Shown: positions 1 to 59,549, counted from the first letter of the stretch. The stretch: 64,000 bases of DNA from Psammoneis japonica (GCA_008632985.1 QPGO01000284.1:1-64000); one strand, 5' to 3'. Translations and numbers: made by a program. Notes: a model not told the origin generated them from the letters alone.

Positions 1-131
1 CACTTGTCCAAAAGTTTCGATGCTGTCTTGCGGAGCATCGCCTTGGCTTCTTTGCCCAAAAGCCCATCACATGACACAACGAATGGTGTGAAATGACGGC
101 GTTGTTCCAGACAAGGCTGGAGGTGCTTGCG
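1..131 (-). pseudogene. CRE-type non-LTR retrotransposon, restriction-like endonuclease C-terminal fragment
   Basis: Minus strand reads RKHLQPCLEQRRHFTPFVVSCDGLLGKEAKAMLRKTASKLLDK, matching the K-Y...F.PFV.S.DG..G.EA RLE end of CRE elements (KY now KH). Runs off the window. Confidence 0.65.
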
Positions 132-134
132 CTA

Positions 135-660
135 GATTGGTTGGGACAGCAGGTTTGTGGATGACAGTGGCAGTGCATGCAAGGTGACGGTGGACGGCGC
201 TGACTTTCCCATCAACAACCAATGCCGTTCGACCCGATCTGGTGTTTGCACAAATTCAACGAGGCAGGACTTGGGTGCAAAATTGCCACATGCATTCAGA
301 CAGGTTGGATTGTTTGGGTGAATGGCCCCTGCCAGCTGGTTTGCCTGATTTGAGTGCAGCTCGAGAGGCAATCAATTGTGAACTTCAAGATGGAGAGCAT
401 CACCCAGCTGATGGGGCACACAACGACAGACGCCAGCATTGTGTGGCACCGACCGGCCTGCGGAATGCCGACCAACACATGAAAACCATGGCTCGCGCCC
501 GACACGAAGCTGTCAACGGTTGGTTTGAGTGCTTTCAAACAATGACAAGAAGGTGTGTCATCATCGATTGACGCGCCATCTTGTCTTCCGAGCAGTGGCA
601 AACATCACACAGCTTTCCCTTTGATGGCCCAAACCTGCTGTCAGACACCATTTTGGATGT
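135..660 (+). pseudogene. Harbinger/PIF DDE transposase, frameshifted fragment
   Basis: Across frames: VTVDGADFPI / WCLHKFNEAGLGCKIATCIQTGWIVWVNGP / ARARHEAVNGWF / VFRAVANITQLSL. Paralogous to the transposase at 35015-36010. Confidence 0.78.
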
Positions 661-1959
661 TTGCCATCTCGACTTGATGCACAATTTGTTCACAACACAG
701 ATTGGATGATTTGCGACAGTCTAGAAAGTGTCTGCCACACACGAACGTGCTGACTGTGAGCTGCAGAAGAAACCAACAACAAACACAGACAGCATGAAAG
801 CACTGAAATGGGTTCCAAGGGCTCAATGGGAATCATTCGAAAATGTCGCGTGGGTCACAATTGGTGTTTTGCACAAGGAAAAACACAAAATCGTGTGGAA
901 ATGTGCACAATGTCATGCGAGAGAGTGATCAGAGCTAACAACTTTTCGGGAGCTGAGCTGAAATGCTGTCTGATTGATGGCATTGGCCTTCACCATGTGA
1001 GTCAAAATGCCATCAATCAGATGGCATTTCAATTGATTTCCCGAGAAGTTGACATTCATGGGCGGACAGATGGACAGACTGACATCAATGATGTCCAGTG
1101 CTCTCCCACACAATTTCCACGTGATGACTCTCAGGACCCGAATGATTCCCACTGAGAAATGATTGCTGCAATGACTGGAACAGCTTTGATTGATTGTTGC
1201 TGTGATGAAGTTGTCTGAAAAAGTGTTTGACTGGGTGGTTGCATCCAGGATTGACGCAGCACCAGCTCAAGGAGTTGCAGAACACAACCAACAGGATGGA
1301 CAGTTGCCGCATCCAAAGCTGTCATGCCGGAAAAACAGTCGAAGCAACATCCAATCTTGACCAGATTGGCTGGCCCAGTTTCTGCATCACCACAAATGAA
1401 CGACGTGTTGGCCCAAATGGATGAACCACCAGCAATGACACCACAGGCTCCGAGAATCATTCACATGCTGACTCTCAACTCTCAACCCATCAGCGGACTG
1501 TGCAAGCAACCTCTGCAGATGCCAGCTGCAGAACAGAAAAGTTTTCACCTGTTGCGCCAGGATCATTGTCAACGAAAAACAGTGCTGCATTGTTGGCAAA
1601 TTCATGAACAGCATTGTTGTGAGTGACAGCACCTGTGGGAGGCAATGGAGCATCAAAACAATGACGTGAGTGTGTGTGATGCCATTTGTGCTGCATTCGT
1701 CGCCAACAGCTGGAGCAATGGCCTTGCCACTTGCATCAGGGACACAAGTGACAGTGTCAGCGGATCAGTGTCCTGGAAAGTGGTTGGCACCGATTCCCGA
1801 GACATTGTCATGGTCGAGTCGATGTGACGAGGTGTGTGTGTTGTGAGAAAAATGGGCAAAAATGACAGGTCATGAGCTTTTAACAAAAATCACAGTGATG
1901 GCCATGCAAACGTTTTGCACCCAGTTTTGAAAAGCGTCTGTCTGACATTGTGTGTCATG

Positions 1960-2190
1960 CAAGATGGAGACAATGCCGTCTCCATTTCGCATGGTCTGTC
2001 TGGCACCAAAAGTTTGTTTGGAAAAATTGACACGTGCCTGCATTGACCATTTCACACAGTCTGTCTGGCACCAAGTTTGTTTGGAAAAATTCACACGTGC
2101 CCGCATCGATCATGCGCCGGTGCAACAATGTCTGTCCAACACAGCGTGTTGTGCAAAATGGAGATGACGCCATCTCCATTTCGCACCTGC
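1960..2190. repeat. Local repeat cluster: two ~58-bp direct repeats flanked by two similar hairpins
   Basis: gtctgtctggcacca(a)aagtttgtttggaaaaatt.acacgtgcc.gcat.ga occurs twice (~1993, ~2058). atggaga...tctccattt(cgca) hairpins at ~1964 and ~2158. Confidence 0.6.
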
Positions 2191-4878: not shown

Positions 4879-6898
4879 TGTGAAGGAACAGATTCACTTC
4901 AGAGGATTTGACAGCAAAGACGAGGAGGACACTTTTGCACCTGAAGAGCCTGAATCGGGGCAGACATTTGGAGTCACCTGTCAAACCTGCAAAGACGCAA
5001 TGAACCAAACGGATGGCACATCTCCAAGGATTGTCAACTGCTGGAATTTCAAAACTCTTTTTGATGAAGACACAGAGTCAAAAAAATGATTTGAGCACAA
5101 ATGCAGCTTGATTCACAAGAACTTCAGCAAGGCAATGCCGCGGGCGCACAACAACACAATGTGCGATGGATTCAAGAAGGAAAGACTGGAGAATGAGGAC
5201 AAAGCAAGAAGGTGATTTTGAAAGACAGAATGAAGGAAGAGAGCCAGAAAAGGAGGGCAAAAAAGGAAAAAAGCAGTCAAAGCAGGACGAGGCAGACACT
5301 GCAAACAAAAATGATGCAGAAGCGGCACAAGCAGAGGACACAGCAGAGGAACAGCAAGAGGGAGACAATGACGAAGGGGTGCACATCACCTTGGCAGAAC
5401 TGCAGCACAAAGATGGGAGCACACAACAAGTGGGCAAGGATGCAGCTGGCAACCCCGCTGTGGAACATGACAAGGAAGTGGACAAGAAAGAGGAGAAGGA
5501 GAGGGAGGCATCAGAGCAGGAGGAAGAGGAAACTTGCAACAGCAATGATGAAGATGACGATGACAAACATGGAGATCACACCCCTGACAAAGACAGGGAT
5601 GACACCCCCCCTCAAGATGAACAGCCAAAGAAAGATCATTCAGATGAGGGGAGCAAAGGGGCACCGGCAAGCCACCAGATGACAAAGCAACTTCTGTTGG
5701 AGACGGAATGTCAGAGGAGAACAACCAGCAACAGGAGGGGCAAGGAAATGACAAAGCAGATGAAGAGGAACCGTCTGCTGCAAACCCTGAGCAACAGGCA
5801 GAAGAGGACAACCAAAACATGGATCAAAGCATTGAGCCATCCGTGGCTTTGCAGAGTGAGGCAGATTTGAATGATGGATCCCTTCCAGGTGGGAGCAACA
5901 ATGACATCAGTGACATCCCAGAGCAACTCCAACAAGTGCCACGCTCCACTGCAAGGAACAATCCGGTGAGCACGCATTTTGGCTCCTCATCCTCTGAGTT
6001 GGAGTTTGAGGCATCAGATGATGATGGCCCTTCAAGTGCTGTGGTTGCTGCCAAAGTTTCAGCCACAATGAAAACCCCATCAAAAGCATCTGAACCACCA
6101 AACAAGGATGTGAGGAAAAGAGTTGTTTGAGAAACACCAGATCGCGAGACAAAAAAGGACACAAGGAAATGCAGGGCAATGGCAGAGGCCAAAAAGGAGG
6201 AAAAAAAGGAACGCACAAGGAGGAAGAAAATTGAGGCAGACAAGAAAAAGGGGGGGGAAGCAGGCGGCAAGAGCGAAGGCAATGGAGGCAGCAAGAAAGG
6301 AAAAGGAAAAAATGAAGAACACCAGCAAACCAAAGAAGGACATGCCGATGACAGGAAGAGTGTTGGCAGTGCAACTGCCACCCATCCCAACAAATTTGGC
6401 AAAGAAAAAAAGACGTTCAACTGGCCGCGGAACAAAAAACAACAAAAATGAAGTTCAGGCAGTTGGGCACATGCATCGACAACAAAAATGTTTGTGTGGA
6501 GCATCGCAGTCTCAAAATGGCTGCACTGCTGTGAGCCCCACAACACTCATTGTCCACTTTTTGTTTTTGGGTTTGTGGCAATTTTGGCACTCAGTTGCTT
6601 GTTTTGGGTGTTGCTTTCAGCCACACTGTTGGTCACAACATGTGTGAAACGATGCAAGACTGACTCGATTTGTGGGGCGACATGTCCTCGGCTCGACTGC
6701 AGCTGCCAAATGGACACAGGTGCGCACCCATTTTTGCATGGTCTGTCCATTGACAGGAGCAAAATTGCATCAATCGCTTTGGCAAATGTGCGTCCTGAGT
6801 TTGGCTGTGGATGCGAAACAGATGCAGGTGCACATCCATTGCTCGTGGTCTGTCCTTCAACCGCAGCCACTTGACATCGATTGGGTGGGGTCTGTCAC
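4879..6898 (+). repeat. Dispersed repeat R1 copy 1 (degenerate acidic/Lys-rich ORF of an unclassified element)
   Basis: Colinear with 23011-24979, from tgtgaaggaacagattcacttcagagga to ggtggggtctgtca. Cut at its 3' end by the satellite. Confidence 0.85.
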
Positions 6899-6901
6899 CA
6901 G

Positions 6902-7430
6902 ATGGCCAAGGGCGCAAAATCACAAAGGGTGCAAAATCACAAAGGGCACAAAATGGCCAAGGGCACAAAATCACAAAGGGCCGCAAAATGGCAGCAAAGG
7001 GTGCAAAATCACAAAGGGCGCAAAATGGCAGCAAAGGGTGCAAAATTACAAAGGGTGCAAAATGGTGGCAAAGGGTGCAAAATCACAAAGGGTGCAAAGT
7101 GGACAAATCACAGAGGGTGTGAAATCACAAAGGGCGCAAAATGGCAAAGGGCGCAAAATCACAAAGGGCTCAAAATCACAAAGGGTGCAAAATGGCGGCC
7201 CAGGGTGAAAAATCACAAAGGGCGCAAAATGGCCAAGGGTGAAAAATGGCGGCAAAGGGCGCAAAATCACAAGGAAAGCAAAATGGCGTCAAAGGGTGCA
7301 CAATCACAAATGGCGCAAAATCTCAAAGGGCGCAAAACAGCCAAGGGCTCAAATTCACAATGGGCGCAAAATGGCAGCAAAGGGTGCAAAATGGCAGCAA
7401 AGGGTGCAAAATCACAAAGGGCACAAAATC
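6902..7430 (+). repeat. 17/20-bp modular satellite, array 1 (AAGGGTGCAAAAT orientation)
   Basis: Tandem caaagggtgcaaaatca / ccaagggcgcaaaatgg / ggcagcaaagggtgcaaaat units. Confidence 0.95.
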
Positions 7431-10184
7431 GATGACATGGTCCATCAGCTGAAGAGCAGCAGCTGTGCGCCCAATGTGTTTCTTGCAGTTCGTTGTGATT
7501 GCACCTCCGTCTGTCTCCAGGTGTGAGTGACAATGTGGCAGATGCTTGACCTGATTTGTGTCGCATGGACAGTGACCTTGGTGAGCTCCTGCCAACTTGT
7601 CTGCTCGGATGTTGACTCTGGCATTTAAATGCAGTGTGTGCGCTGGAGATTGCCTGTCTTGGTGTCCCTTTGCCCATCGCACGGGAGGCAAGGCAAGGTC
7701 TTCTGAATCCGATGACTGCTTCAGAGCTTGCTGGGCATGGAGGATCTCATTCAAAATGTCCCAGTCTGGTGCAACAGTGTTGGCCCCGTGATGGCGGATG
7801 TGAAAATCGTGTTTCTCGTGCGCGTCATTCTTGGGATCAATCACCGGCAGAGTGGGCGTTAATTTGGACAAACAGTTCACCAGTGCTTTGTCATCACAAT
7901 GAATGACTGCATCCAAAGGAACCACAACACGGCAGCATTTGCACAGTCGGCAAATGAATCTTGCAATTGAAAGAATGCCGCAAGCCTCTGCTTGACATGA
8001 GGACGGAGTCTTGCCAAAAACTGGCCCTGCACAATCAACTGGTGGTGCCCCGTCAATGGCGACAGTCCACCCAAAGGTGGCCCCATCTTGGACTGACCCG
8101 TCACTGCCTGCGGCAAGAGCAGACAAAAGAAAGTGTTGGGCCACTGCTCAGGGAGAAATGTGGAACACCAAGTCTTCAAACAGCGTAGATTCCCACGTGT
8201 CCAGTCCTTGAAGATGCACTAGAAAGGAATCGGGGGAGGCCGGAGAGCGAGAGTCGGTTGATGAGGTGCGCGGGATCTTGAATCGCCAATGGCTGTCCTC
8301 GATTGTAGACACCTCTGCCGGGTGTGAAGCATCAGAGGGAGTCGGTGCAGTCTCGATTTCCCTTGTAGAATCGGCGGTTGTCCCATTTGCTTGGAAGATG
8401 TCAAAACCTGATGAGGAGCACACATGCAAATGTTCTTCAGCAGGGGAAAAACATGCAGTCAACTGCATTCTCATCTGGGACGGTGGCACCAGCCAATCTC
8501 CCAGAGGTTCCTTTAAATGCAGTGACTTCAGGTGACACAGAGCTGAGCAAAATTTCTTCCACACGGTCCAGGCTCTTGGACAAGGCTTGCACTGTTCGAC
8601 ATTGTTGAGGGTGCCAACGCTGCTTTGCAGGGACGGATCACCTTGCATTTTCGACCCATCCAGTGTCGTCCCATCCAAGAGAGCAATGTCGGAAACAGAT
8701 GAGACTTTCAAGTGCAAGTGGCAACAGTTTGTCCAACAGATCTCTCATGCAGCAAAGGACTGGGAATGCAATGCAATGTCCATCAAATGCTGGTCATTGT
8801 CTCTTTGAAGTGGAAGGACCCCATTGTGGAGCAGGAACACACAACCATTCATCCATTGCAAAAATGCTCTGACCGACGTGAACCATCGGGATTCCATGTG
8901 AGGCAACCCGGCATCTACGTCCCACAAAAAACTCTCGCCAGTTCCCAAATTCAGTTGGATCCATGCTGCTGCGACCTGAAGAAGTTTGTGCGGTTGATCC
9001 TCCCCAAGTTGCAAGTGTTGGACTCCTCTCGCGTGCTTCAACACTTGTTGCAGTTGGGCTGCACCTTGCTTGACGTCAAGTGATCGAAAACCTCCTCCTC
9101 TGAGGGATTGCAGTCCACACAAAATTGCCCGTTTGGTGTTCCCATTGTGCCTGCATTTGGCGAACATCGTCCGCATGGCCTTTTGTTGAACTTGTTGGAG
9201 TTCTTTTGGGAGAAAGTTTGAATTGGCCAGTGTGCATGTCATCAAAGACAAATGACAAGCATGGCAGCACCGCCATGTTTCTCTTCTGTCCAAGGGACAC
9301 GACCGGAGAAATGAGGTGACAGCATCAATCTTGTGTTGCAGCTTCTGCAGTTGAGTCTTCTGAGTTCCTGTGGGAGCCATGCAGTGTCCCAGGGTTTTGT
9401 GAGGTGTGCATGCAGACAATTGCTTGCTGCACCTGGAAGTGGACCGGTCTGCAGAAAAAATTTCCACTTTGATGTCATCATGACAAGGGTGGACATGCGG
9501 TTCATCACTTTCCATGAAATCCCACTCGATGGCATGGAGTGAACATTTTGGTGACTCCAACTTGTGCCCGGCAGCATCCAGCAGGTCACACCACAACTGG
9601 CCATCCGATTGTAGAGACCTGGACAACTCGAAAGTGGAAGGCTGGGGGTTGGCTCTGAAATCATTCACTTGCTTGGAAGTGTCGTTGACGTAACCTTGGT
9701 TGAAGACTTGGACATGGAACTGTCCGTCTGGGGTTTCAAAGCATGAGCCAACAGCCTCGGCATCAAAAATGTCAAACAGTCCACTGCATTGGGCATTCCA
9801 GCACCAGGGAGAGTTCCCGCCACCCTGTCCTGTCCCGCACAAAGGATGATCGGAGGAATGAGAGCAACTTCGCTGGGCGAGTCCCAACAGAGTGTGCAAC
9901 CAGCAGCGTGCATGGTGCAACGTTGCCATGTTGACTTTGACCACTCGTTCGTGCATGCCATCGCTCTTCGCACACAGGCCGACAATCGCTGGAATGTTCC
10001 CATCATGGCAAGAAGTGCAATCGTTTTCACTGGTTGGCAGTGTTTTTCTGGATGCATGTGAAATCTCCATCATCAAATTTTCAAGAAACACTGGTGTTTG
10101 AGCAGAAAGGAACAAGCGGCATCCGCAGATCCCTGGGTTGCACATGCGATGGTGTTCCACATGTTGAGCTGGCTCTCGCCACTT

Positions 10185-10580
10185 GATGCGTTCCAGACAC
10201 AGGTGGGAATCCGTGTGACATTGGGCCCGTAGACTTCTGCGTGCGAGCTCCGCAGTAAAATCACACGGCAATTAAAATGTCAATGATCGCCAACAGAAAA
10301 TGAGGCAATTTTGCGAACGCACAAACTCGCCCATGATTGAAGTGCATCATTTTTTACTTGGCCAGTTACATTCTTCAGACATTGAAGAATGCACCTGGCG
10401 CATCATTGTTTCTGTAAATTCGTCATGCAAAACGTCTGGGGCTTTGCAAAACAGCGAGTCTGGACAATTTTTTTTAAATGTCACACGCAGAAATCTACGT
10501 GCGAAACATGCGACAGATGGCAAAAATTGTTTGTGTCACACGTCAGTGCTGCGAGCTCCCACCCAGGGCTGGAACGCGTC
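10185..10580 (+). mobile_element. MITE family copy, 396 bp, TSD ACTT
   Basis: actt|gatgcgttccagacacaggtggga...tcccacccagggctggaacgcgtc|actt. Inserted in the LINE RT. Confidence 0.95.
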
Positions 10581-10774
10581 ACTTGACACTTGCGATCAAT
10601 TGGAAGTCCGCCTCGTAGATGTGAATCACACGCAACTGATGAATCTTGTCATTGCCTGGTTCTTTGAAAATCACAACGTCAACAATGTCTTTCCACTGTT
10701 CGTGCGAGTGGCCCCACTTCAGCGCACAATTGATCAGGTTGAGCCGCATTGCCACGAGAGACTGTTGGACCGAA

Positions 10775-11170
10775 GACGCGTTCCAGCTCCAGGTGGGACC
10801 TTGCACTGCTGAACTGTGACACAATTGTTTTTTGTCATCCGTCGCATGTTTTGCACGTGCATTTCTGCGTGTTCCATTGTAAAAAATTGTTCCACACTGC
10901 CTGTTTTGCGAAGCCAAAGGCTTTCTGTCATCTGCGTTCATGTCAACAAAAATGCACTGGGAACGTTCTTTAATGTCTGAAGAACATGCCCGGGCACACT
11001 GCAAAGAATGCACTTCAAGTGTGGAGGAGGAGATGTGTTCGCAAAATTGCCTCTTTTTCTGTTGGCTGTCATTCATGTGTCCATTGCTTGACAATTTTAC
11101 TGCGGAGCTCGCACGCAGAATTCTGCGGGCCCAATGTCACAAAAAGTCCCACCCAGGACTGGAACCTGTC
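10775..11170 (-). mobile_element. MITE family copy, 396 bp, TSD CGAA/TGAA
   Basis: cgaa|gacgcgttccagctccaggtggga...tcccacccaggactggaacctgtc|tgaa. Confidence 0.93.
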
Positions 11171-42274: not shown

Positions 42275-42289
42275 TGGGCTGATGCGCGC

Positions 42290-49000: not shown

Positions 49001-51070
49001 CCAATTTGACCTACGATGAGCTCGCCAAGGTTTTCATTGACGACAGGTGCATTGGCACCGCTGATGACCCAGTCAAATGTGATGGTCGACGAAATCTGTG
49101 CAGTGCTGCTTTGGCTCAATGATGGCGTCACCACCGATGAGTTCTGTCCCAATTTAATGGAACAACGCTGCAAGGCTGCCTGCGATGTTTGGGCACACAG
49201 GGGAGCAGATTTTAGCGAGATTCATCTCATGTCAGTGCTGCATTGTCTCGCTCTATCCAGTGTTGTGGTGAAGGACCACCTGCGTCTGAACAACATGATG
49301 TGTCCTGCATTCAATTCTGGCACGGCCGCTCAACTGGCCCACATCAACCCAGACAAACCAACTGGCCCACATCAACCCAGACAAACGACCGCTCATGCAC
49401 CAACGCATGTGATTGGAGACCGGGGCCGAGGAGCACGGTTGGAACGGTGCAGAGCACAAACTCTGTGAGAACTCGGACAATCGCTGCACGTGCATGTTCG
49501 ATTGCATGTTCCGCGGTCCATGTTCCGGACAAGATCTCTTCTTCATTTTCTCCATCAGGCAAGCGATTGCGCAAACCCTGTGGATCAGTGGATTGTCAAA
49601 TTGTGGAGTGCGTTGACTCAGACCCTCGCCTTTACGACCAAAAAGATGCGACGGTTCAAGGTGGAATTGCGGCTGACCTTGGTGATGAGTCCTTGTTGCG
49701 TGATGGAGTGGCTGCTGACAATGAATTAAACTCATTGTCTGGATCATCCAACCAGGACAAATCCTTGCCGGAAGAATCCTCCGACGATGAAGACAGTGCG
49801 GGATTAATTTCTTGCGCATCGGACAACAACGAATCATTGGCACTTGACGGAGTTGTGGCAGACAATGAACTTGGCTCCTTGCATGATGAGTCCTCCAACG
49901 ACGAAGAATGTGCGGGATCATTTTCTGGTGCATCAGACAAGAACGAATCATTGACTCTGCATGGAGTTGTGGCAGACAACGAACTTGGTGACAGTGTTTC
50001 AGAATGCGGCGCCCCTGTCATTGCTCTCAAGGATGAGGAGAGTTCTGTTGATGCCACCAATGACTGTGCGAATCCACCCGACCTTTCACAAAATCCCACT
50101 GCAAATGTGGACGAACACGTGGCGGCAACTTTGGCGCAAGTCTCGCACCTTCTCCTTTGAGACTTGAGTGTGAATTGCTGTTGTGGCTGATGTGTGACTC
50201 TTTCTGCCCTGCTTTTTAACAATGCACAGTCGCGACAGCAGCGCCAAAATCCTGTGGCTGTGCATGTCCAGGCCTGCAAATGCCGGACAGCTGTCCTTCA
50301 ACGAGCTTTGTTCCGACCGTGGGGTGCAGGCCGTGGCCAACACTCAGCATCAAAGAGACGAGGCTGGGTGTCAAGTTGCGGAAAACCTGTGCACGAATGC
50401 CAGCGTTGAGGCATGCACCATCTCTCTGCAGGACGGAAGTGCCATGCACCACCTCAATTGCAACATTTCTGCAAAGGATTTTGTGTCTCGAGTGAAGTCA
50501 CAATTCGGCGGTGAAATTGATTTTAAGAACAGTGGATTCATCCAGATTTGCATGGACTGTTGCTGGATGCAATGCGGCGAGTGGAACATGACGTCTTTTG
50601 GCAATCGCTTCTTCCGCGAAAACCCAAAAGAGATGATGCCATCCTTGTTGCATCCCAAGTTTGAAAGGTGTCGCATCACAGTCCCACACAACCTGTGGTC
50701 TCTCTCCCAAGTCGTGCGCAACTTGGAGCATGTAGAAGAATGCGCGCTGATTCAATTGATGACTCACGAAACGGCATTGGACGAAATTACGATGTGCCAA
50801 ACGTCGCTCGAAATCGCAGAACAAGACAGGGGGATTGGCTGGGAAAACCATCCGACCAGGAAGCCATGCATTCAGGAGTCACGGAACAGGAAATTTGGGA
50901 AACACTTCCGGAAACAGAAAGGGACAAGGTCTTAGACTTCACAAGAGAAGTTAAGAGTTATGATCCGAATGATCCATGGAAGTTTTTTTCTTTCGAAAGA
51001 AGCGTGCCAAATTGGCAGACCTGCCTCGACCCGTGGCCCCGGTGGTTTCTGGACCCGCACATCGACGAAT
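46100..51070 (+). pseudogene. Long degenerate ORF series of unknown function, convergent with the Plavaka-like transposase
   Basis: Consecutive protein-like + ORFs (46103, 46098, 47291, 48105, 48787, 49016, 49243, 50222, 50668). Includes a GHRDVKN motif and three ~120-140-bp ESL..DGV.ADNEL repeats (49685-49990). Confidence 0.45.
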
Positions 51071-51239
51071 GAAGCTGACTCCTTCAATTCTTGTGGCCTT
51101 GTCAACTGCACAAATTAGGTGAGTGCTGATGGTTGTGTCGTCTGTTTCCGAAATTGCGCATGTTCCAACAATGGCATGCTCTGACACTGTTTCGAAATGC
51201 AAAGCACTGTTTGCAGTTGCCAATTGTCGATTGTGCCCA

Positions 51240-54200
51240 TCAACCGCATTGTGAAACTTGGCCGCCCATGTTTTTCTCCTGTCTTGAACTGCCCAAACGT
51301 GCTTTGTCTTCTCGTGTGACTCTGTGATTCCCGGTTGTTCCTCGCACACCTGCAATTTTTCACCGACCGCCTCAATTGGAACCAAGTGCAGTTTTGGAGC
51401 ATGCACGGCTTTTTGCGTGTGGACAACTCTTGGTTTTTTACTTGATCCAATTGCCATCGACTGACAAGGTCGGTGTGTTGCATGCGTTCCACCATGGTGC
51501 GCTTGTCCGCCTGGCAAGTGCAAGGATGCACAATTGCAAACAACTCACCATCGCTCATTCTTTGAAAGAAAGAATGAAGTCGTGAAGGGAAGAACAAATC
51601 ACCGCGCCAAGTTCCAAAGTTTGCATTTGCCCAGTCATGAATGGCGCCTTTGCTGTTGCAGTCCGGGTGCGCGCGGTGAGTGTCGATGCCGTTTTTGTCA
51701 CAAATTTGAGGAGAACAGGGTGCACCTGACAATGCTTTTGTTTTCCCTTCCACAGGAACAAAACAGCCTTGTTCGAAGCATTGCACTTCAACACGCATGA
51801 GGAACCACCAAGACGGTGATTGGCCGCATCACCCGCCGCACGCATTTTGCGATCCGACTTCTTTGTTGTCCATGGATTGGCGGAGATGGCTCGGCGAACC
51901 ATCATTTGGTCTTCCATGCGAGACGCAACCTGACCCAGAAGGACATCAAAGCTCCGCTGTTGAGCCATGGCGGCTGGCAATTTGAAAAAATCCTTCAACA
52001 GTGATTTGCCAAGACCAGCATCGAAATTCATGGCATGACGGTAGAAGAACAGGAAAGTGGGCAAATGGATCAATTCATGGAGTTTTTGCAGCTTCCAACC
52101 AGCACCCTTTGAAGGTTGTTTCTGTCTGAAGGAGGGTCACCCAGCTTGTGCCATGCATGGAATGCAAGCATGTCTTTGAGCAGCTTTGCATGCTGGTGAA
52201 CGCTGCATCTAATTGGGATTCTCTTTTTGTTGGCTCTCTTGCGCTTGCCCTCTCCTTTGTTGTCTGATTCGTTGTTGTTGTTTTCAACAGAACGGTCAGT
52301 GTCGCATTTGTTGGATGCTGCATCTTCTCTGTCATCTAGATCAACTGCTGCCTGGCAATCATCCTCCGGATCGCATTCTTGTGGCATGTGGATTCTGTCC
52401 ATTCTGAATTTTGGGATGCGGCGACCCAAGGGAAGTGATGGTTCTTCCGCGTCTTCTTCGCTGAAGCAGGATGCGCAGACCTCGCGACCCTCCTTTGCAA
52501 GCAACAGAAGGTAAAAGACAAAGGCCATCCCCGCCCAGTGATGAGAATTTAAGAAGGTGAGTGAAGTGGCCCCACCTTTGAAATTGGTGCCCAGAAAGGA
52601 GGAACTGCACGTGGATTGGTGATTCCCGAACATCTTTTCTGCCAGCCCGTCTACCTCCTTTCTCACGTTTGCAGTCATGCTGTCCACAAACACATGGATC
52701 TCCCTTTTCAGAGTGCCATTTTCATGCAGGTGCATCATGTCGCTGGCCATGGAAAGAGTTGCTCCGAATGGTTGCTCGCCAAAGTCTGCACACAGCAAAC
52801 TGTTGGTTGGAACATTGTGTTGCTTCATGTGGTGCAGTTCTTCCCTCCAGTGACTCCGCTCCTTGTCTTCAAGACTTTCATCATTGGCCATGCACTGAAC
52901 TCGCAGCAAGTTGCCAGCACGCACCAGCTTGCATTCCTTCCAAGGGTCGTCAAGGTTGTTGCATCCCGTCATGCAAAAACGGGAGCAGCGTTGGCGACAA
53001 TTCTTTGCCGTGCCTGCCCACAAGGCAGTCTCCGCTCTTTGCATCTCCATTGATTAGGATTGTGATTGGAATTACATGAAGGTGACGGATCTCGTCGCCT
53101 CGTCGCACATGACATTTGAAGCCACCCAGCTCCATTGCGTCAAGCAAAGGCTGAAGTGTGGTTTTCAAAACCTTGTGGTGCTCACGAAGACTTTGCCCCT
53201 TTTCCGACTTGCGTGCATTGGACTGCTGTTTTGCTGCGGAAGAAGACATTTTTTCAAGGTCGGGAATGCATCCAAGAACTCTCCACTTAGCTTTGTTGTG
53301 CCACTGTGTGAAGGCAACATGCGCGGAGGTCACTGTCACGGGTTCTCTGCAAGAAGATCCCATCGAAGCTGTCTGTCCCGTCTTGTCTACATGAACTGTC
53401 AAACATTCCAAGAACTGTTTTAGTGGATCCTTGACTCTGGCGAATCGTGCTCCTGTGCCACTCTCCGGCCAAGACGCATTTGTCATCCAAGCCCTTGGCA
53501 ACGTGCATGCCAAAAGGATTGTGTGTGTCCGCAAGATTGCTTTTGTCAGCCCACATGCAAGTGTCAAGCATGTGTGATTCCCACACCTCTTGGAAGTTCC
53601 ATCTTGGAACCATTGCAGTTTTCTCTCCCCGTTCGCCGCTTGGAGTTTCCAGGTTGACCGGTGTCATCTCTCGTTTGGTCCGGGGAACGATTTGGAAAGA
53701 GTTTCCATCAGTGCATTGCGATGAGGCATTTTGGTCCCAAGCTTGAATGTGGTGCTGCAATGTCTTTCGACAAATCCCACAATGTCGTCGCACAGGTGGA
53801 GCGGCGCTCTGCAGTCATCTGTCAGCTTGCTCAACTCCACACAGGCCCCGTTTGGGTTGCTCAATGACGACAAGCCGGCAAAGGCTGCCTCGGCGGGGTG
53901 TTGGCAGATGTTGCCCAATCGGCTGTCATCCAACAGAGAGGAAATGTTCCCTTGGGACGCTTGCGTGTCATCTGTCACATTGCTGTCTGGAACATCCATG
54001 GTGACGTCCGGCAGCGCGGCGAAAGAGTTTGCTTCTGTGTCGCTGCTTTCGTCTGAAAGCATCTCCAGTGACATGAAGCAACTGTCGTCTGGGCCACAAA
54101 TGGAGGAGAGAGGGGACATGTTGTCTTCGAATGCTGGCGACCATGGAGCGTCAGAAGGTGGTTCGGACGAACGGGCAGAACCAGCCATGCGGGCATTGGA

Positions 54201-54517
54201 AACAGAGGCCCCTCGTCTTGATCGTCTCAATCCATGTGTGGAGGTGTGGTTGGATGACGAGGAAGAATCGAGTCCACGAGAAGCCATTGAATGCAAATTT
54301 GCATTCCCAGGGTTGCTGTGCCTTCCAACCACTTTGACACAAGCATCGGGCAACAAGTTGGGTCCCGGCGCACCTTGTGACGCCAAGTTGGACACTTCGC
54401 GAGCGACAGACATTGTGGATTGCGATTTAAGTGACCGAGCATGCGCTGGAAGGAGCGATGGCAACAGGGACAGGCGATGGCTTCTTTGCCCTTGTTTTTG
54501 GACTGAGGAAGTTCCAT
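51240..54517 (-). pseudogene. Plavaka-like (EnSpm-related) transposase, frameshifted
   Basis: N-terminal CPCC...H.....C finger; GEWH; LTVHVDKTG (=YxDKT); EPV; WRVLGCIPDL; INGDAKSGDCLVGR; CSRFC; DMMHLHENG; HRAHPDC...HDWA (=YRAHP.Y...YDWA). Confidence 0.8.
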
Positions 54518-54704
54518 TTTGGTGTTTTGGTGGAAAGAAACAGCAAAGGATTGGCGAGAGTGATTGTGCAAATGGTTGCGGCTGAGGTTTGGTCGTGTGG
54601 ACGGTGTGTGTGTGTTGTGAGGGTTGGCGGGAAACAAGACATGAAATTGGCGCGAAAATGGTGATCATTGATTTTTTTGCATTGATGAATGCTTTTGTGG
54701 TTGC

Positions 54705-55053
54705 AACGTGTTCCAGCTCTAGGTGGGACCTCGTGCTGCTGAACTGTGACATGATTGTTTTTCATCATCTGTCGCATGTTTTGCACGCACATTTCCATGT
54801 GTTCTATCACAAAACATTGTTCCACACTGCCTGTTTTGCGAAGCCAAAGGCTTTCTGTTGTCTGCACTCATGTCAACAAAAATGCGCTGAATGTGCTTCA
54901 AGTGTGGAGGAGGAGATGCGTTCACAAAATTGCCTCTTTTTCTGTTGGCGATCATTCATGTATCCATTGCTCAATGATTTTACTGCGGAGCTCGCACGCA
55001 GAATTCTGCGGGCCCAATGTCACAAAAAGTCCCACCTGGGACTGGAACCCATC
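54705..55053 (-). mobile_element. MITE family copy (internal deletion), TSD TTGC
   Basis: ttgc|aacgtgttccagctctaggtggga...tcccacctgggactggaacccatc|ttgc. Confidence 0.93.
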
Positions 55054-56597: not shown

Positions 56598-56689
56598 TTG
56601 ATGTTCATGCATGATTCTGTGCAATTGAAAGTTTCAAATGCAATGATCCAGTTGCACATCAAAATTGTCATTGACATTTAATTGTGCAA

Positions 56690-57085
56690 GACGCGTTCCA
56701 GACGTAGGTGGGAATCCGTGTGACATTGGGCCCGTAGACTTCTACGTGCGAGCTCCGTAGTAAAATTATATGGTAATTAAAATGTCAATGATCGCCAACA
56801 GAAAATGAGGCAATTTTGCGAACGCACAAACTCGCCCATGATTGAAGTGCATCATTTTTTACTTAGCCAGTTACATTCTTCAGACATTGAAGAATGTAAC
56901 TGGCGCATTATTGTTTCTATAAACTCGTTATATAAAACGTCTGGGGCTTCGCAAAACAGCGAGTCTGGACAATTCTTTTTAAATATCACACGTAGAAATC
57001 TACGTGCAAAACATACGACGGATGATAAAAATTATTTGTGTCACACGTCAGTGCTACGAGCTCCCACCTAGGGCTGGAACGCGTC
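56690..57085 (+). mobile_element. MITE family copy, young/TA-intact, 396 bp, TSD GCAA
   Basis: gcaa|gacgcgttccagacgtaggtggga...tcccacctagggctggaacgcgtc|gcaa. About 28 TA retained; same subfamily as 10185-10580. Confidence 0.96.
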
Positions 57086-57353
57086 GCAATTCAAGTTGAA
57101 CAATTGGTCACTTGAGCTGAAACAAATGCAACCAAACATGTGGTCTTCAAAGTCAAATGACAAAAATCACTAATTGTGATGATTTGGGAAAGATTTGACA
57201 GTCAACAACACATGAGGAGGGGGAAGTGGCATCACCACAAAGTGTCAGGAACAGGTTTGAAATTTTGCAAAAAGACAATTTTCCTCGGAAGAGCTGTTGC
57301 GCTGCACGATTGCAGACAGGAGGAACTGACAGTGACACAATGAGTCGTGGACG

Positions 57354-58546
57354 ATGGGAAGGAGGAAGAAAGCAGCTAAGACAGATGCTGCAGGGGCAGA
57401 GGGAGCACCCCACAGCCCGAGGCTTATGGCGGCATTGCAGCGGATGGGGGCTGCGGCGGATCACAAGTCACTGAAGAGAGAGGTGGAAGAGGTGGCACGG
57501 AGAGAGCTGTCCCCAAAAGCGAAATTCCTCGTGAAGGTGGACACAGTGAGTGGTGGCAAGGTGTCACGGCCAATGCGCAAAAACACAGCAGATGGCAAGT
57601 TCGGCAAGCTCGAACGGGCGGGATCATGGGAGGACTGGGCCAAAAAAGCATGCTCAACGCGATCAACGCGAAAAGAAACACCGTGTGTCAGACGACAATG
57701 AGGAGTGCAATGAGTTGCAAGTGAGGAGGAGTGGAGCATTTCCGAAGCGAGAATAGAAAGTGGTGCCACTGATGAATTGCTCGTTTTTCCACAGTCGTCA
57801 CAACAGAAAAACAAGCAGAGGAAATCCGAGAAAAAAAAGAAAGAAGCAAGGAAGCAGAGATCCGCAAAAAAGCGGAAACAGGATGAAGCTGACATTGAGG
57901 AAGAGTTCATTGTGACTTGGGAGGATGGGACAGTGGACACAATTGTGATGGAGAAGCGAAAGGACAGAGAGGCGTGTGCATGGTTCTACGACAACGTCCC
58001 AAAATTCACGAAGAGCACCGCGATGTGGAGGAGGATGGCAGAGTCCGGAAGCACCAAGGCCACAGATCTGGCTGCTGCAAGCGCCGAGACACTGGCCCTG
58101 TTGATGATGGAAAACTGCTGGAAGGTTTGGGAGTGCAAGAAGACGCAGGAGTCAGATGAGGAAGGGAGCGAAGAGGAAAAACCGGCTCCGCTGCACACGG
58201 ACCCGTCGCGACAGCGTGACTCTTGGAAGGATGAAGGAACAAAGCGCTTCAACGATTTGCCAAAGGAGGCAAAGGAAGACAGGGCGAGAGAGCACGGTGT
58301 GCATTTCGACACATGGCACACAGACGAAAAGAAAAAGGAGTGCGAAGAAAAGGGAAAAAAGGCAAGAGCCACTCAAGAGCCAGCGAAAATGGAGAGGTGA
58401 GAACGCAGGCAACATTGGAACTTTCTAGTGATGACGAGGAGGACGATGAAGCAACGGAGACACCAGGTGGTGGAGAAGATGAGGAGGAAGATGAAGCTGG
58501 CCAGGAAGACAGCGACGGAAGCGGCGGAAATGAGAACCCAGTGTGA
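57354..58546 (+). pseudogene. Degenerate transposon-accessory-type ORF
   Basis: ASAETLALLMMENCW..W...PLHT.....SWKDEGTKRFNDL...KEDR resembles a recurring 'S.EA.ALL..ENYW...W..EG..RFN' DNA-transposon accessory motif (recalled, not verified). Frameshifted, with an acidic tail. Confidence 0.45.
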
Positions 58547-59549
58547 GCAAATTGGAGGTGCAGGACGTCCAGGACTGCAGCATCAACTTGGCATTGATTG
58601 AGCATTGATTGACAACAGATGTTAAAAAGCCGCAGAGATGCGCATTGGTTGATTGAGAAGAGCTGACTAACTTCATTGTGCTTGCCCCTTTAAATTGCAA
58701 AACTGTCATGTGATGTGAAGGTTGACAATGACGTTGATTGTCAGCAGTCACAGTGAACGAAGGCGCGTGCCAAATGGGAAAAGAGGGGGGTGTTTACACA
58801 GTTGAGGTTCACTCTTGTAGATAAAAGATGTCTCCACAGCAAAAAAAAATTGACTGCCACAGATTGAATTTTTTTGCCAGCTGCACAACCAATGAGGTTT
58901 GAAACTGTGAAAATTTTGTCTGTCAAAGAGATGAAAATCACAATGAAAAGACAAAGCCTGATCACTGTGTTGTGCCCTCTGATGTTTCCACAGCTGTTTT
59001 GTGCGGAACTGCGGTCAATGGTCAGAGCAACAAACAGAATGACACCTCTTCAATCTGTTGAGTTGCGTTGGGCTGTTGGTGGCATTCATGGCCCTCTTGC
59101 GTGCGCGGCTGGTTGCGTCGGTGTGAGGCCGTCGTGGCTTGTTGGTGGTCGCGTTTCGTGACTGAAACACGTCATTCTGGCACATGAAGTCGAATTAGTC
59201 CATCTCGCAACTTTCTCGCGCCTACAGTATGGCCTATATGATACCGTAGCTTCTTCAGCCTGCGCGCTTTTCACAAGCCGGCCGGCTCGCAATGCTTTGT
59301 CGTCTGCCCGCCGCAAACAAACCAACAGCATGCACAGCGCACTGCAGCATACCGGTAACAACAGCAACAGCAGATGCCGGTAGATGCTAGATGCAACCAA
59401 CGAACTCTTCTGGCGATAGCAAAGAACAACGCCGAGCTTGTAAAGCAAAACAAAGATCTAAATAGTAGTAGAGGTCGTTCTCTTTTGAGGCGAAATCAAA
59501 TGGCATGCTGATGCTTTCATAAGTGCAAAGAACCTCTAGACACACAAAG

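What the first reader, a model, noticed from the sequence alone, without database searches (positions are those of the whole stretch)
1..59190. Repeat-targeted TpA->TpG/CpA hypermutation: a 'reverse-RIP' genome-defence signature
Seen: TA is almost absent over 59 kb of unrelated transposons (Copia, LINE, Harbinger, Plavaka, MITE) but normal in the two host genes. Established: conserved TE Tyr residues give the direction. Copia YVDD reads CMDD, LYGLK reads LCGLK, IAYHR reads IACHR; LINE YGTGQG reads CGTGQG; Harbinger ADxGY reads ADDGH; Plavaka YRAHPxY reads HRAHPDC. TAY->TGY (Cys) or CAY (His) is A->G in TpA on one or the other strand. Fungal RIP (CA->TA) and 5mCpG decay (CG->TG/CA) cannot produce this. 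Inference: a process that mutates adenines in TpA specifically in repetitive or silenced DNA and inactivates TEs. Candidate mechanisms are a DNA adenine deaminase (TadA-derived editors prefer TA) or Pol-eta-type error-prone patch repair (WA->WG signature). I know of no described system of this kind in diatoms, but could not search the literature.
Basis: partly seen in the sequence, partly recalled or inferred. Interest (0 to 1): 0.96.

Follow-up and report, generated by a model that had tools for sequence, protein, structure and literature searches.

The report
TpA-to-TpG/CpA hypermutation of diatom repeats
About nine in ten TA steps in 59 kb of transposon-derived repeats of a diatom have been turned into TG or CA while the neighbouring genes are untouched, the same odd mutation signature recently shown experimentally in an unrelated alga and probably a genome-defence process.

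Summary
In 1-59190 there are 317 TpA against 3807 expected (O/E 0.08). The host-gene end has 205 against 339 (0.60). TG and CA are 1.3-1.97 times expectation in the zone.

Three tests show the direction TA->TG/CA.
- A 9-copy MITE family has two TA-rich copies (25 and 28 TA) and seven TA-poor copies (2-9 TA). Eleven sites show TA, TG and CA in different copies.
- Of 26 conserved Tyr columns of LINE homologues, the window reads Cys at 13, His at 5 and Tyr at 1.
- Of 11 conserved Tyr columns in a second, unrelated protein, it reads Cys at 6, His at 4 and Tyr at 0.

Depletion stops within about 100 bp of the repeat/single-copy boundary. Unique non-coding DNA beside it is normal (O/E 0.71). The host kinase's named relatives are all diatoms.

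The same TpA-only A:T>G:C hypermutation of foreign DNA was shown by mutation accumulation in the chlorarachniophyte Bigelowiella natans (bioRxiv 10.64898/2026.01.13.699255). My six literature searches found nothing for diatoms. Verdict: real, a new member of a just-described kind. The enzyme is unknown. Of the TE labels, LINE and MITE are confirmed, Copia is weak, and Harbinger and Plavaka are unconfirmed.

The parts
1..58933 (.). TpA-depleted, TG/CA-enriched, CpG-reduced repeat zone (runs off the left end of the window)
   Evidence: 317 TA observed against 3807 expected in 1-59190; in 44001-59341 the summed contig word depth of run X1 is 569-70011, against about 56 over the host genes, so this DNA is repeated. 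No depth data were obtained for 1-44000.
7000..12250 (-). Non-LTR (LINE) retrotransposon, hypermutated, ORFs largely open
   Evidence: ORF 8748-10271(-) has 109 homologues of 906-2467 aa, many carrying PF03372 (APE-type endonuclease) or PF00078 (RVT_1). The named ones are from the diatoms Fragilaria crotonensis and Cylindrotheca fusiformis; tblastn hits run from about 7.0 to 12.2 kb (-). At 26 conserved Tyr columns the window reads C 13, H 5, F 3, Y 1, other 4.
39000..39300 (-). Second short LINE fragment
   Evidence: 62 tblastn HSPs of the same LINE homologues, in the 38.5-kb (1) and 39.0-kb (61) bins (approximate limits); two conserved Tyr columns here read F and H.
26480..30268 (-). Gene for a roughly 1000-aa protein of no known family, hypermutated; probably element-borne
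   Evidence: 14 homologues among 1.84 billion representatives (best E 1e-39); 12 of the 14 were scanned against Pfam, with no family at the curated cut-off; no PDB relative of P0231; tblastn spans 26480-30268(-). At 11 conserved Tyr columns the window reads C 6, H 4, F 1, Y 0.
17336..19590 (-). Possible Copia-type RT remnant (weak)
   Evidence: RVT_2 E 0.0059 (16.7 bits, cut-off 31.6) on 18850-19590(-). The motifs CMDD, LCGLK and IACHR are present. Five neighbouring ORFs gave no family at E up to 1.
12304..17270 (+). 17-bp satellite, about 283 copies, TA-free consensus
   Evidence: Tandem Repeats Finder. An inverted 0.5-kb piece lies at 6902-7430 and a related unit at 21129-21240.
56690..57085 (+). 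Young MITE copy with normal TpA (28 TA): an island inside the depleted zone
   Evidence: Perfect 4-bp target-site duplication GCAA. Compared with its 92%-identical relative at 10185-10580: 38 differences in 406 positions, of which 20 are TA>TG/CA.
31104..31494 (+). Young MITE copy with normal TpA (25 TA): second island
   Evidence: Target-site duplication CACA.
10185..10580 (+). Old MITE copy (8 TA). Six further TA-poor copies lie at 2965-3350(+), 10772-11173(-), 20649-21037(+), 43054-43439(-), 44993-45329(+) and 54706-55049(-)
   Evidence: the seven old copies have 2-9 TA, 69-85 TG+CA and 12-24 CG. The two young copies have 25 and 28 TA, 51 and 55 TG+CA, and 30 and 26 CG.
4879..6897 (+). 2-kb repeat family; further copies at 23011-25045 and 32663-33830. 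All are saturated (0, 2 and 4 TA)
   Evidence: 32 CA/TG double differences between copies A and B. In the three-way alignment only 3 sites still hold a TA.
58934..59417 (.). Boundary: start of single-copy DNA and of normal TpA density
   Evidence: an X1 contig of depth 56.6 covers 58934-60397. TA per 250 bp rises from 0-3 to 7-10 at 59001; 58501-58933 has 6 TA against 32.7 expected; 58934-59417 has 11 against 27.2.
59418..61844 (+). Host gene: RGS-domain protein kinase (GRK-like), 4 exons, expressed
   Evidence: Pkinase E 1.9e-23, RGS E 4.9e-08; a spliced X2 contig gives exons 59418-60411, 60511-60710, 60819-61226 and 61305-61844; 721 homologues; all named hits among the best 60 listed are diatoms or MMETSP transcriptomes labelled as diatoms.
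62108..64000 (-). Host gene of unknown function (runs off the window)
   Evidence: an X2 contig covers 62108-63752 and 63842-64000; only one weak bacterial homologue. DUF4394 E 7.4e-4, below the cut-off.
35018..36220 (-).
   Evidence: The motif ADDGH is at 35272-35286. Pfam gave no family at E up to 0.01 or up to 1 for the ORFs tested.
50954..54761 (-).
   Evidence: The motif HRAHPDC is at 51658-51678. Pfam gave no family. X1 summed depth here is 724-1500.

Best explanation
The zone is a block of transposon-derived repeats in a diatom nuclear genome. A DNA-level mutation process has worked it over in place, converting TpA to TpG or CpA (an A:T>G:C transition at either base pair of the palindromic TpA step). 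The process acts on repeat or element DNA and stops at the edge of single-copy DNA.

Shown here:
- The direction of change.
- The restriction to TpA: ApA, ApT and TpT are not depleted.
- Independent hits on both strands, site by site.
- A rate of about 15 times the background per dinucleotide and about 6 times that of CpG decay, in one polarised pair of copies.
- Near-saturation, with about 90% of TpA gone.
- Recently inserted MITE copies inside the zone that are still intact.
- A milder CpG>TpG/CpA decay in the same DNA.

Follows from the genetic code: these changes can never create an in-frame stop (TAA>TGA/CAA, TAG>TGG/CAG). Elements are therefore disabled by missense only. Every Tyr becomes Cys or His, and ATA Ile, GTA Val and TTA/CTA Leu codons and codon-spanning TAs also change. 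This is why long ORFs stay open in all frames.

Inferred: this is the same kind of process as the TpA-only hypermutation of integrated viral DNA measured in Bigelowiella natans. It serves as, or at least has the effect of, a genome defence aimed at silenced selfish DNA. Recognition probably works through chromatin, 5mC or small RNA rather than through the mere TpA content.

Most likely chemistry (my estimate about 0.45): a TadA/ADAT2-type adenine deaminase acting on DNA. Adenine becomes inosine, which is read as G. The natural tRNA substrate of these enzymes is always A34 preceded by U33, that is a 5'-UA step (established knowledge, recalled).
For: Composition: with the numbers given in the observation check.

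Direction, test 1 (paralogues): in the 9-copy MITE alignment, 11 dinucleotide sites show TA, TG and CA in different copies, and 9 show CG, TG and CA. From the young copy at 56690 to the old copy at 10185 there are 38 differences in 406 positions: 20 TA>TG/CA (12 CA, 8 TG), 5 CG>TG/CA, 7 other transitions and 6 transversions. Read in the reverse direction there are no TA>TG/CA changes. Over 143 comparisons of a young-copy TA with an old copy, the outcomes are CA 65, TG 53 and TA kept 25.

Direction, tests 2 and 3 (proteins): at 37 conserved Tyr columns in two unrelated families the window reads Cys 19, His 9, Phe 4, Tyr 1 and other 4. The controls are kept: Phe 25 of 32, Trp 26 of 30. Fisher's exact test on Tyr kept against Phe kept gives p = 1.8e-11.

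Aimed at repeats: the boundary lies at 58934-59000 and coincides with the fall in X1 depth from 723 to 57. Unique non-exonic DNA has TA O/E 0.71.

Acts in place and over time: TA-rich MITE copies with intact 4-bp target-site duplications sit inside the depleted DNA. TG and CA outcomes alternate along each copy, with no strand-coordinated runs.

Differences between this copy and other genomic copies in run X1 are 932 transitions against 232 transversions, with adjacent CA<->TG double differences.

Precedent: in B. natans mutation-accumulation lines sequenced by Illumina, 231 of 302 nuclear single-nucleotide mutations fell in two viral insertions and 230 of those 231 were A>G or T>C. The preprint states that all of these GC-biased mutations fall on TpA. 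TpA-poor CDS were enriched in RT and DDE domains, and an ADAT2 homologue is named as a candidate (Results and Discussion sections read).
Against: - No enzyme was seen. No genome is held for this window, so no deaminase, JBP/TET or polymerase candidate could be sought.
- Sequence cannot tell A>G from T>C at a palindromic step.
- No de novo mutation was observed here. The process may be extinct in this lineage.
- All DNA in the part of the zone with depth data is repeated. 'Repeat-induced' and 'silent-chromatin-directed' therefore cannot be separated. In B. natans the main target is single copy.
- The platform of run X1 is not on record, and X1 may be the data the assembly was made from. It is not fully independent proof against an artefact.
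- The flanking-base preference rests on a 5-kb host baseline and on non-independent MITE comparisons. TTAA has the same density in the zone as in the host stretch (1.13 against 1.18 per kb, both strands pooled). ATAT has 0 in the zone against 3.36 per kb in the host stretch. In the polarised data TTAA is still mutated in 7 of 11 comparisons.
- The Cys:His ratio of 19:9 is not significantly different from 1:1 (p = 0.087).
Confidence: 0.75

Rival explanations
1. The signature and targeting are the same, but the chemical target is the thymine. A JBP/TET-type dioxygenase marks T in TpA of silenced DNA as 5hmU or 5fU. The oxidised base occasionally pairs with G and gives T>C, which reads as A>G on the other strand.
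For: TpA is palindromic, so every result here fits this equally well. 5hmU made by a dedicated enzyme silences transposable elements in dinoflagellates, another SAR lineage (PMC11572971; search listing and abstract start only). That 5-formyluracil mispairs with G, and that dinoflagellate 5hmU favours TpA, are recalled and not checked.
Against: No report found of 5hmU in diatom DNA, although that was not searched for specifically. There is no direct evidence here. The B. natans authors favour adenine deamination.
Confidence: 0.15
2. Sequencing or consensus artefact: a modified base at TpA in heterochromatin is miscalled, so the TAs are really there.
For: The platform of the only holder runs is not on record, and they share one sample with each other and perhaps with the assembly.
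Against: - Identical sequence contexts give different outcomes in different copies. The CCTAGG of the 5' terminal inverted repeat reads CCTGGG, CCCAGG or CCTAGG. A systematic miscall would not do that.
- A symmetric miscall should also yield CG, yet CG is depleted.
- TA-rich MITE copies are read normally inside the zone.
- Contigs built from run X1 alone reach 315 kb at word depth about 56 and hold 66% of the sampled words of 54001-64000. Of 9256 pieces laid, 1669 are at least 99% alike.
- The same signature arose de novo in Illumina-sequenced lines of B. natans.
Confidence: 0.04
3. Error-prone patch repair by a Pol-eta-type polymerase (the WA>WG signature) in heterochromatin.
Against: WA also includes AA, and AA and TT are not depleted: O/E is 1.29 and 1.39 in the window, with most zone bins between 1.0 and 1.7. 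In the polarised pair only 4 A:T>G:C changes lie outside TpA, against 20 inside.
Confidence: 0.03
4. ADAR-like A-to-I editing of element RNA, with the edited RNA then copied back into DNA by reverse transcription.
For: ADARs prefer a 5' U (cited in the preprint's Discussion). The LINE shows more Tyr>Cys (13) than Tyr>His (5), that is more A>G on the sense strand.
Against: The MITEs have no RNA intermediate and are mutated in place, after insertion, on both strands: 65 CA against 53 TG, with intact target-site duplications. The satellite and all non-coding repeat DNA are equally TA-free. The 13:5 ratio, or 19:9 pooled, is not significant.
Confidence: 0.02
5. No targeted process: the elements arrived TA-poor, or GC-biased gene conversion or selection removed TA.
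For: None specific was found. GC content in the zone (0.45-0.53) is slightly above the host end (0.47).
Against: Within single families, TA-rich and TA-poor copies coexist, and the same site reads TA, TG or CA in different copies. Gene conversion is not specific to one dinucleotide, and ApT (O/E about 0.9) and AA/TT are untouched. Dead elements are not under selection for protein-changing Tyr loss.
Confidence: 0.01

Closest known systems
TpA-specific hypermutation of integrated NCLDV and virophage DNA in Bigelowiella natans (Mettrop et al., bioRxiv 10.64898/2026.01.13.699255; outline, Results and Discussion read)
   Same: The changes are exclusively TpA>TpG/CpA. The targets are foreign or selfish DNA rather than host genes. 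The long-term footprint is TpA depletion with CpA+TpG gain, and TpA-poor CDS there are enriched in RT and DDE domains. The activity looks episodic: only some lines mutated there, and here intact young insertions sit inside a saturated zone.
   Different: - The host is a diatom (Stramenopiles), not a chlorarachniophyte (Rhizaria).
- The targets here are high-copy transposons and a satellite. The main B. natans target is a single-copy viral insertion.
- The footprint here is near-saturated over at least 59 kb (O/E 0.08). There the NCLDV region has Rho 0.45, and clusters were defined as runs of at least three 1-kb windows; the one whose size the text gives is 4.4 kb.
- No rate was measured here.
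- CpG decay accompanies the signature here, and a flanking-base bias is seen. The word search of the preprint found no 'TTAA', 'flanking' or 'trinucleotide'. Its supplements are closed and may hold context data.
Repeat-induced point mutation (RIP) of ascomycete fungi
   Same: An irreversible transition hypermutation confined to repeated or selfish DNA. It leaves a dinucleotide footprint and sharp borders against unique genes.
   Different: The chemistry and the footprint are the opposite. RIP is C>T at CpA and so makes TpA; here TpA is destroyed. RIP creates stop codons, and this process cannot. RIP requires duplication and a premeiotic stage with RID/DIM-2 (recalled); none of that could be tested here.
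5-methylcytosine deamination at CpG in methylated transposons
   Same: It produces TG and CA. It is present here as a second process: CpG O/E is 0.28-0.95 in the zone against about 1.0 in host DNA. Nine MITE sites show CG, TG and CA in different copies. Conserved Arg is kept at only 18 of 40 columns, with Gln 7 and His 3.
   Different: It cannot remove TpA. It is about six-fold slower than the TpA loss in the polarised pair: 5 of 26 CG lost against 20 of 28 TA lost.
Deaminase-based restriction of retroelements and viruses (APOBEC3 C>U on cDNA; ADAR A>I on dsRNA)
   Same: Editing-type hypermutation used against selfish nucleic acids. ADAR shares the preference for a 5' U (preprint Discussion).
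   Different: Here resident double-stranded genomic DNA of DNA transposons is hit on both strands without strand-coordinated runs. No replication intermediate or RNA is involved.

Membership tests
TpA>TpG/CpA hypermutation of foreign DNA (B. natans type) | The changes are A:T>G:C transitions, polarised from TpA to TpG/CpA | tested here: met
   paralogues; Tyr>Cys/His at 28 of 37 conserved columns, Tyr kept at 1.
TpA>TpG/CpA hypermutation of foreign DNA (B. natans type) | Restricted to the TpA dinucleotide | tested here: met
   Only TA is depleted (O/E 0.126). AA is 1.29, AT 0.89 and TT 1.39. In the polarised pair 20 A:T>G:C changes lie at TpA and 4 elsewhere.
TpA>TpG/CpA hypermutation of foreign DNA (B. 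natans type) | Confined to foreign or selfish DNA; host genes and unique DNA are spared | tested here: met
   The boundary at 58934-59000 coincides with the start of single-copy DNA. Unique non-exonic DNA has TA O/E 0.71. Only one boundary and 5 kb of host DNA were available.
TpA>TpG/CpA hypermutation of foreign DNA (B. natans type) | Mutation rate raised by orders of magnitude, measured de novo | not testable with these tools
   This needs mutation-accumulation or parent-offspring sequencing. The only estimate here is relative, from one pair of copies: TA loss 1.25, CpG loss 0.21 and other sites 0.044 per site.
TpA>TpG/CpA hypermutation of foreign DNA (B. natans type) | Same enzyme or homologous machinery (ADAT2-like candidate) | not testable with these tools
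   No genome is held for the window. The enzyme is unproven in B. natans as well.
Fungal RIP | C>T at CpA, producing excess TpA and loss of CpA/TpG | tested here: not met
   The opposite is seen: TA O/E 0.08, with CA and TG 1.3-1.97. The direction was shown.
Fungal RIP | Triggered by sequence duplication | tested here: inconclusive
   All mutated DNA with depth data is repeated. However, two repeated MITE copies are unmutated, and no unique silenced DNA was available for comparison.
5mC deamination footprint | CpG loss with TpG/CpA gain, and no effect on TpA | tested here: not met
   CpG loss is present, but the dominant loss is of TpA, which this process cannot cause.
ADAR-edited retroelement copies | A>G on the transcribed (sense) strand of elements that pass through RNA | tested here: not met
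   DNA-transposon MITEs are mutated in place on both strands, CA 65 against TG 53.
Pol-eta WA>WG mutagenesis | A>G at both ApA and TpA | tested here: not met
   AA and TT are not depleted. Only 4 non-TpA A:T>G:C changes are seen against 20 at TpA.

The most novel reading that the evidence does not exclude
Diatoms possess an active, dedicated genome-defence enzyme that edits resident double-stranded genomic DNA at TpA steps. It would be a natural DNA adenine deaminase of the TadA/ADAT2 lineage, or a thymine-modifying enzyme with the same outcome. It is guided to silenced transposons and erases about 90% of their TpA without ever making a stop codon. The same system operates in chlorarachniophytes, so it would be either ancestral to much of the SAR supergroup or repeatedly evolved. 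The flanking-base bias (TA preceded by A or followed by T most mutable, TTAA least) would be the enzyme's fingerprint.
Probability: 0.4. Interest if true: 0.9.

Novelty: new member of a known kind. Interest (0 to 1): 0.74.

Why it matters
RIP has long been the textbook case of a genome that mutates its own repeats, and it is confined to fungi. A second system with the opposite chemistry was shown experimentally only in 2026, in one chlorarachniophyte.

This window shows the same signature in a diatom, at saturation, on ordinary transposons, with a sharp border against genes. That moves the phenomenon from a curiosity of one alga towards a possibly widespread defence in ecologically dominant phytoplankton.

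Practical consequences:
- Hypermutated elements escape Pfam-based TE annotation. Here 38 of 40 long ORFs gave no relevant family.
- TpA-poor, Tyr-free, Cys/His-rich open reading frames in such genomes are likely to be miscalled as genes.
- The enzyme, if it is a natural DNA adenine deaminase with TpA specificity, would interest base-editing work. All current adenine base editors derive from a laboratory-evolved TadA (recalled).
- The footprint is easy to screen for, as Rho(TpA) against Rho(CpA+TpG) in windows. The phyletic spread of the system is therefore directly testable.

Tried and rejected
- Whole genome: none is held. No genome-wide profile and no search for deaminases were possible.
Stop-free ORFs were scanned instead. 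In the zone, 172 ORFs at E up to 0.001-0.01 gave only one weak RVT_2 hit and some chance-level hits. 14 ORFs of the Copia, Harbinger and Plavaka regions, re-scanned at E up to 1, gave nothing new. ORFs of 80-149 aa between 26 and 59 kb were mostly not scanned.
- Host ORF 62313-63752(-): only one weak bacterial hit, of no use for placing the organism.
- PDB sequence search with P0231: no match.
- Pfam on 12 of the 14 homologues of the unknown protein: nothing at the curated cut-offs.
- Earlier findings of this scan: no notes for this genome. Two word searches returned nothing or only unrelated phage and bacterial windows.
- RNA: no RNA holder is listed for the stretch. Run X2 behaves like RNA, with spliced contigs over both host genes. 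In the repeat zone it lays only two short pieces (44714-44890 and 54706-54825). This is not counted as evidence of silence.
- Strand-coordinated clusters of the kataegis or RIP-cycle type: none seen in the seven old MITE copies by eye. No formal runs test was done.
- Cys:His asymmetry as a sign of strand bias: not significant.
- CA<->TG double differences between copies as proof of a TA ancestor: rejected as ambiguous, because a CG ancestor gives the same pattern. Three-state sites and young copies were used instead.
- Literature: searches found no paper describing TpA loss or A:T>G:C hypermutation of repeats in diatoms. Subscription journals are outside the library.

Full report
**1. Observation**

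The window has TA at 0.126 of expectation, with TG at 1.564, CA at 1.535 and CG at 0.642. In 2-kb bins TA O/E is 0.00-0.33 up to 60 kb, and 0.61 and 0.60 in the last two bins. In 1-59190 I count 317 TA against 3807 expected from base composition. In 59191-64000 I count 205 against 339.

Because TAA and TAG are nearly gone, long ORFs appear in all six frames. Over the three + strand frames of 1-59000 the counts are TAA 132, TAG 80 and TGA 1436. There are 109 stop-to-stop ORFs of at least 150 aa.

Thirteen long ORFs in the zone hold 0.0-0.3% Tyr, with 2.4-7.0% Cys and 2.8-8.7% His. The two host ORFs hold 4.4% and 2.3% Tyr.

**2. What the DNA is**

The host end carries two expressed, spliced genes. 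One is an RGS-domain protein kinase at 59418-61844(+). The other is a gene of unknown function at 62108-64000(-) (Pfam; spliced contigs of run X2).

The kinase ORF has 721 homologues. The named ones among the best are all diatoms: Seminavis, Nitzschia, Fistulifera, Cylindrotheca, Thalassiosira and others. Identity is 45-49% over 98% of the query, and at most 63% over half of it. The window therefore comes from a diatom with no close relative in that collection, and not from Bigelowiella.

The zone is repeated DNA. In 44001-59341 the summed word depth of X1 contigs is 569-70011, against about 56 over the genes.

What could be identified in the zone:
- **A LINE at about 7.0-12.2 kb(-).** It has 109 homologues of 906-2467 aa, many with APE-endonuclease (PF03372) or RVT_1 (PF00078) domains. 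The named ones are from Fragilaria crotonensis and Cylindrotheca fusiformis. A small second fragment lies near 39 kb.
- **A MITE family of about 400 bp in nine copies.** It has terminal inverted repeats. Of the 8 copies checked, 6 have perfect 4-bp target-site duplications and 1 has a duplication with one mismatch.
- **A 2-kb family in three copies**.
- **A 17-bp satellite of about 283 units** at 12304-17270, with an inverted piece at 6902-7430.
- **A roughly 1000-aa protein of no known family** at 26.5-30.3 kb(-).

'Copia' rests on one sub-threshold RVT_2 match (E 0.0059) plus motifs. For the 'Harbinger' and 'Plavaka' ORFs, Pfam gave nothing even at E up to 1, so those two labels remain unconfirmed. 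'Unrelated repeat families' nevertheless holds, on the strength of the LINE, the MITE, the satellite, the 2-kb family and the unknown protein.

**3. Direction of change**

(a) Paralogues. Two MITE copies (31104-31494 and 56690-57085) keep 25 and 28 TA. The other seven have 2-9 TA, more TG+CA (69-85 against 51 and 55) and fewer CG (12-24 against 30 and 26). These two copies are exactly the two TA islands in the fine-scale map of the zone.

In the alignment, 11 dinucleotide sites show TA, TG and CA in different copies. For example, the CCTAGG of the inverted repeat reads CCTGGG, CCCAGG or CCTAGG. Only a TA ancestor explains three states with single steps. Nine further sites show CG, TG and CA, so CpG decay acts as well.

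Between the 92%-identical pair 56690 and 10185 there are 38 differences in 406 aligned positions. They are 20 TA>TG/CA (12 CA, 8 TG), 5 CG>TG/CA, 7 other transitions and 6 transversions. Read the other way there are no TA>TG/CA changes. Taking the young copy as ancestral, that is a loss of 1.25 per TpA, 0.21 per CpG and 0.044 per other site. This is an upper bound, because all change is placed on one lineage.

Over 143 comparisons of a young-copy TA with an old copy, the outcomes are CA 65, TG 53 and TA kept 25.

(b) LINE proteins. I ran tblastn with all 109 homologues on the window. I took columns where at least 10 homologues align and at least 60% of them agree. There are 26 conserved Tyr columns, and the window reads Cys 13, His 5, Phe 3, Tyr 1 and other 4. 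The controls are kept: Phe 14 of 19, Trp 23 of 26, His 16 of 16 and Cys 6 of 7. Arg is kept at only 18 of 40, with Gln 7 and His 3, which is the CpG-decay footprint.

(c) The unknown protein. With 14 homologues and a threshold of at least 3 aligned, there are 11 conserved Tyr columns. The window reads Cys 6, His 4, Phe 1 and Tyr 0. Phe is kept at 11 of 13.

Pooled, Tyr is kept at 1 of 37 columns against Phe at 25 of 32 (Fisher p = 1.8e-11).

(d) Other genomic copies. Differences between this copy and the X1 contigs are 932 transitions against 232 transversions. Adjacent CA<->TG double differences occur, for example at 44228/9, 44828/9 and 45459/60. These doubles alone are ambiguous between a TA and a CG ancestor.

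**4. Specificity and targeting**

Only TA is lost. AA is 1.29, AT 0.89 and TT 1.39. That argues against a WA-type polymerase signature and against GC-biased gene conversion.

Normal TA density begins at about 59000. An X1 contig of single-copy depth begins at 58934. Segment 58501-58933 has 6 TA against 32.7 expected, and 58934-59417 has 11 against 27.2. The 1121 bp of unique non-exonic DNA (upstream region, four introns and the intergenic spacer) has TA O/E 0.71 and CpG O/E 1.02.

The TA-rich MITE copies inside the zone have intact target-site duplications. The process therefore acts after insertion, and either slowly or in episodes. TG and CA outcomes alternate along each old copy, so hits are independent and fall on both strands.

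Surviving TAs are biased by context. TTAA has the same density in the zone as in the host end (1.13 against 1.18 per kb, both strands pooled). ATAT has none, and the other classes are depleted 4- to 60-fold. An additive fit done by hand gives the ease of loss by the base before TA (equivalently, the complement of the base after it) as A > G > C > T. In the polarised MITE data survival is 4 of 11 for TTAA, 8 of 18 for GTAA and 4 of 52 for ATAN. This is suggestive only, because the host baseline is 5 kb and the MITE comparisons are not independent.

**5. A consequence of the code**

TA>TG and TA>CA can never create an in-frame stop, because TAA gives TGA or CAA and TAG gives TGG or CAG. Unlike RIP, this process inactivates by missense alone and removes two of the three stop codons. 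This explains the open frames. It also explains why profile searches fail on these elements.

**6. Artefact?**

Unlikely, at about 0.04, for these reasons:
- Identical contexts give different outcomes in different copies.
- CG is not produced.
- TA-rich insertions are read normally inside the zone.
- Contigs built from run X1 alone carry the same sequence, holding 66% of the sampled words of 54001-64000. Of 9256 laid pieces, 1669 are at least 99% alike, and the longest contig is 315 kb.

The caveat is that the platform of X1 is not on record. It is of the same sample as the other holders and may be the assembly's own data.

**7. What is known**

A full-text search found bioRxiv 10.64898/2026.01.13.699255 (Mettrop et al., dated 2026-04-14). 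I read its outline, Results and Discussion and searched its text.

In B. natans mutation-accumulation lines sequenced by Illumina, 231 of 302 nuclear single-nucleotide mutations fell in an integrated NCLDV (186 kb) and a virophage (25 kb). Of these, 230 were A>G or T>C, and the preprint states that all of these GC-biased mutations fall on TpA. The rate was about 6e-7 per site per generation, and only some lines were affected. TpA-poor CDS were enriched in RT and DDE domains. There were 124 clusters of TpA-poor, CpA+TpG-rich 1-kb windows. An ADAT2 homologue was proposed as the enzyme.

The preprint text contains neither 'diatom' nor any term for flanking context. Five further searches found nothing on such a process in diatoms. 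One search listed PMC11572971 (abstract start only): enzymatic 5hmU silences transposable elements in dinoflagellates.

**8. Mechanism**

What is shown: an in-place, DNA-level, TpA-specific A:T>G:C process confined to repeat DNA.

What is inferred: it is enzyme-driven and guided by the silent state of the elements. CpG decay in the same copies points to 5mC, and TA and CG counts correlate across the nine MITE copies (Spearman rho = 0.88). Age alone would produce the same correlation.

For the chemistry I favour adenine deamination by a TadA/ADAT2-type enzyme, at about 0.45. These enzymes always act on A34 after U33 (recalled knowledge), and the preprint reaches the same candidate. Thymine oxidation at TpA, giving T>C, fits every sequence result equally well and gets about 0.15. 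Pol eta, ADAR acting through RNA, artefact and a passive composition effect are each below 0.05, for the reasons given under rivals.

**9. Verdict**

This is a real and striking footprint. It is the second lineage, and the first diatom, in which this recently described kind of hypermutation is seen. Here it is at saturation on ordinary transposons, with a sharp border against genes. Novelty: a new member of a known kind. Interest is high but tempered by the 2026 precedent and by the lack of any enzyme or de novo event here.

Noticed in passing
12304-17270 (+); 6902-7430; 21129-21240: A 17-bp satellite (about 283 units, TA-free consensus). A 0.5-kb inverted piece abuts the 3' end of the minus-strand LINE, and a related 51-bp unit lies at 21.1 kb. 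The satellite may derive from the LINE tail. It explains the extreme AT skew (-0.40 to -0.59) of 12-18 kb and the artefactual 1730-aa 'ORF'.
   Followed up: partly
26480-30268 (-): A roughly 1000-aa protein with 14 homologues among 1.84 billion representatives. It has no Pfam family at the curated cut-offs and no PDB relative. It is presumably encoded by an unclassified mobile element of protists.
   Followed up: partly
2965-3350, 10185-10580, 10772-11173, 20649-21037, 31104-31494, 43054-43439, 44993-45329, 54706-55049, 56690-57085: A MITE family of about 400 bp with roughly 24-bp terminal inverted repeats and 4-bp target-site duplications of variable sequence. X1 summed depth over the three copies in the laid stretch is 22389-70011, against about 56 for single-copy DNA, so there are hundreds to about a thousand copies. 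The superfamily was not determined.
   Followed up: partly
zone-wide (1-58933, excluding islands and satellite): Surviving TpA are biased by context. TTAA makes up 59 of 254 survivors and has host-like density. ATAT has 0, and ATAC/GTAT has 4. This may be a fingerprint of the mutator's flank preference.
   Followed up: partly
22445-24229 (+) and paralogue 4879-6897: A long ORF (595 aa) rich in Lys, Glu and Asp, inside the 2-kb repeat family. Copies A and B differ by many A<->G changes within purine runs (AA/GA 42, AG/GG 30, AA/AG 23). These are not at TpA, and their cause was not examined.
   Followed up: no
59418-61844 (+): The host RGS-kinase (GRK-like) has three short introns of 99, 108 and 78 nt. 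The first two are in frame and free of stops, so the genomic ORF 59523-61004 reads straight through them.
   Followed up: no
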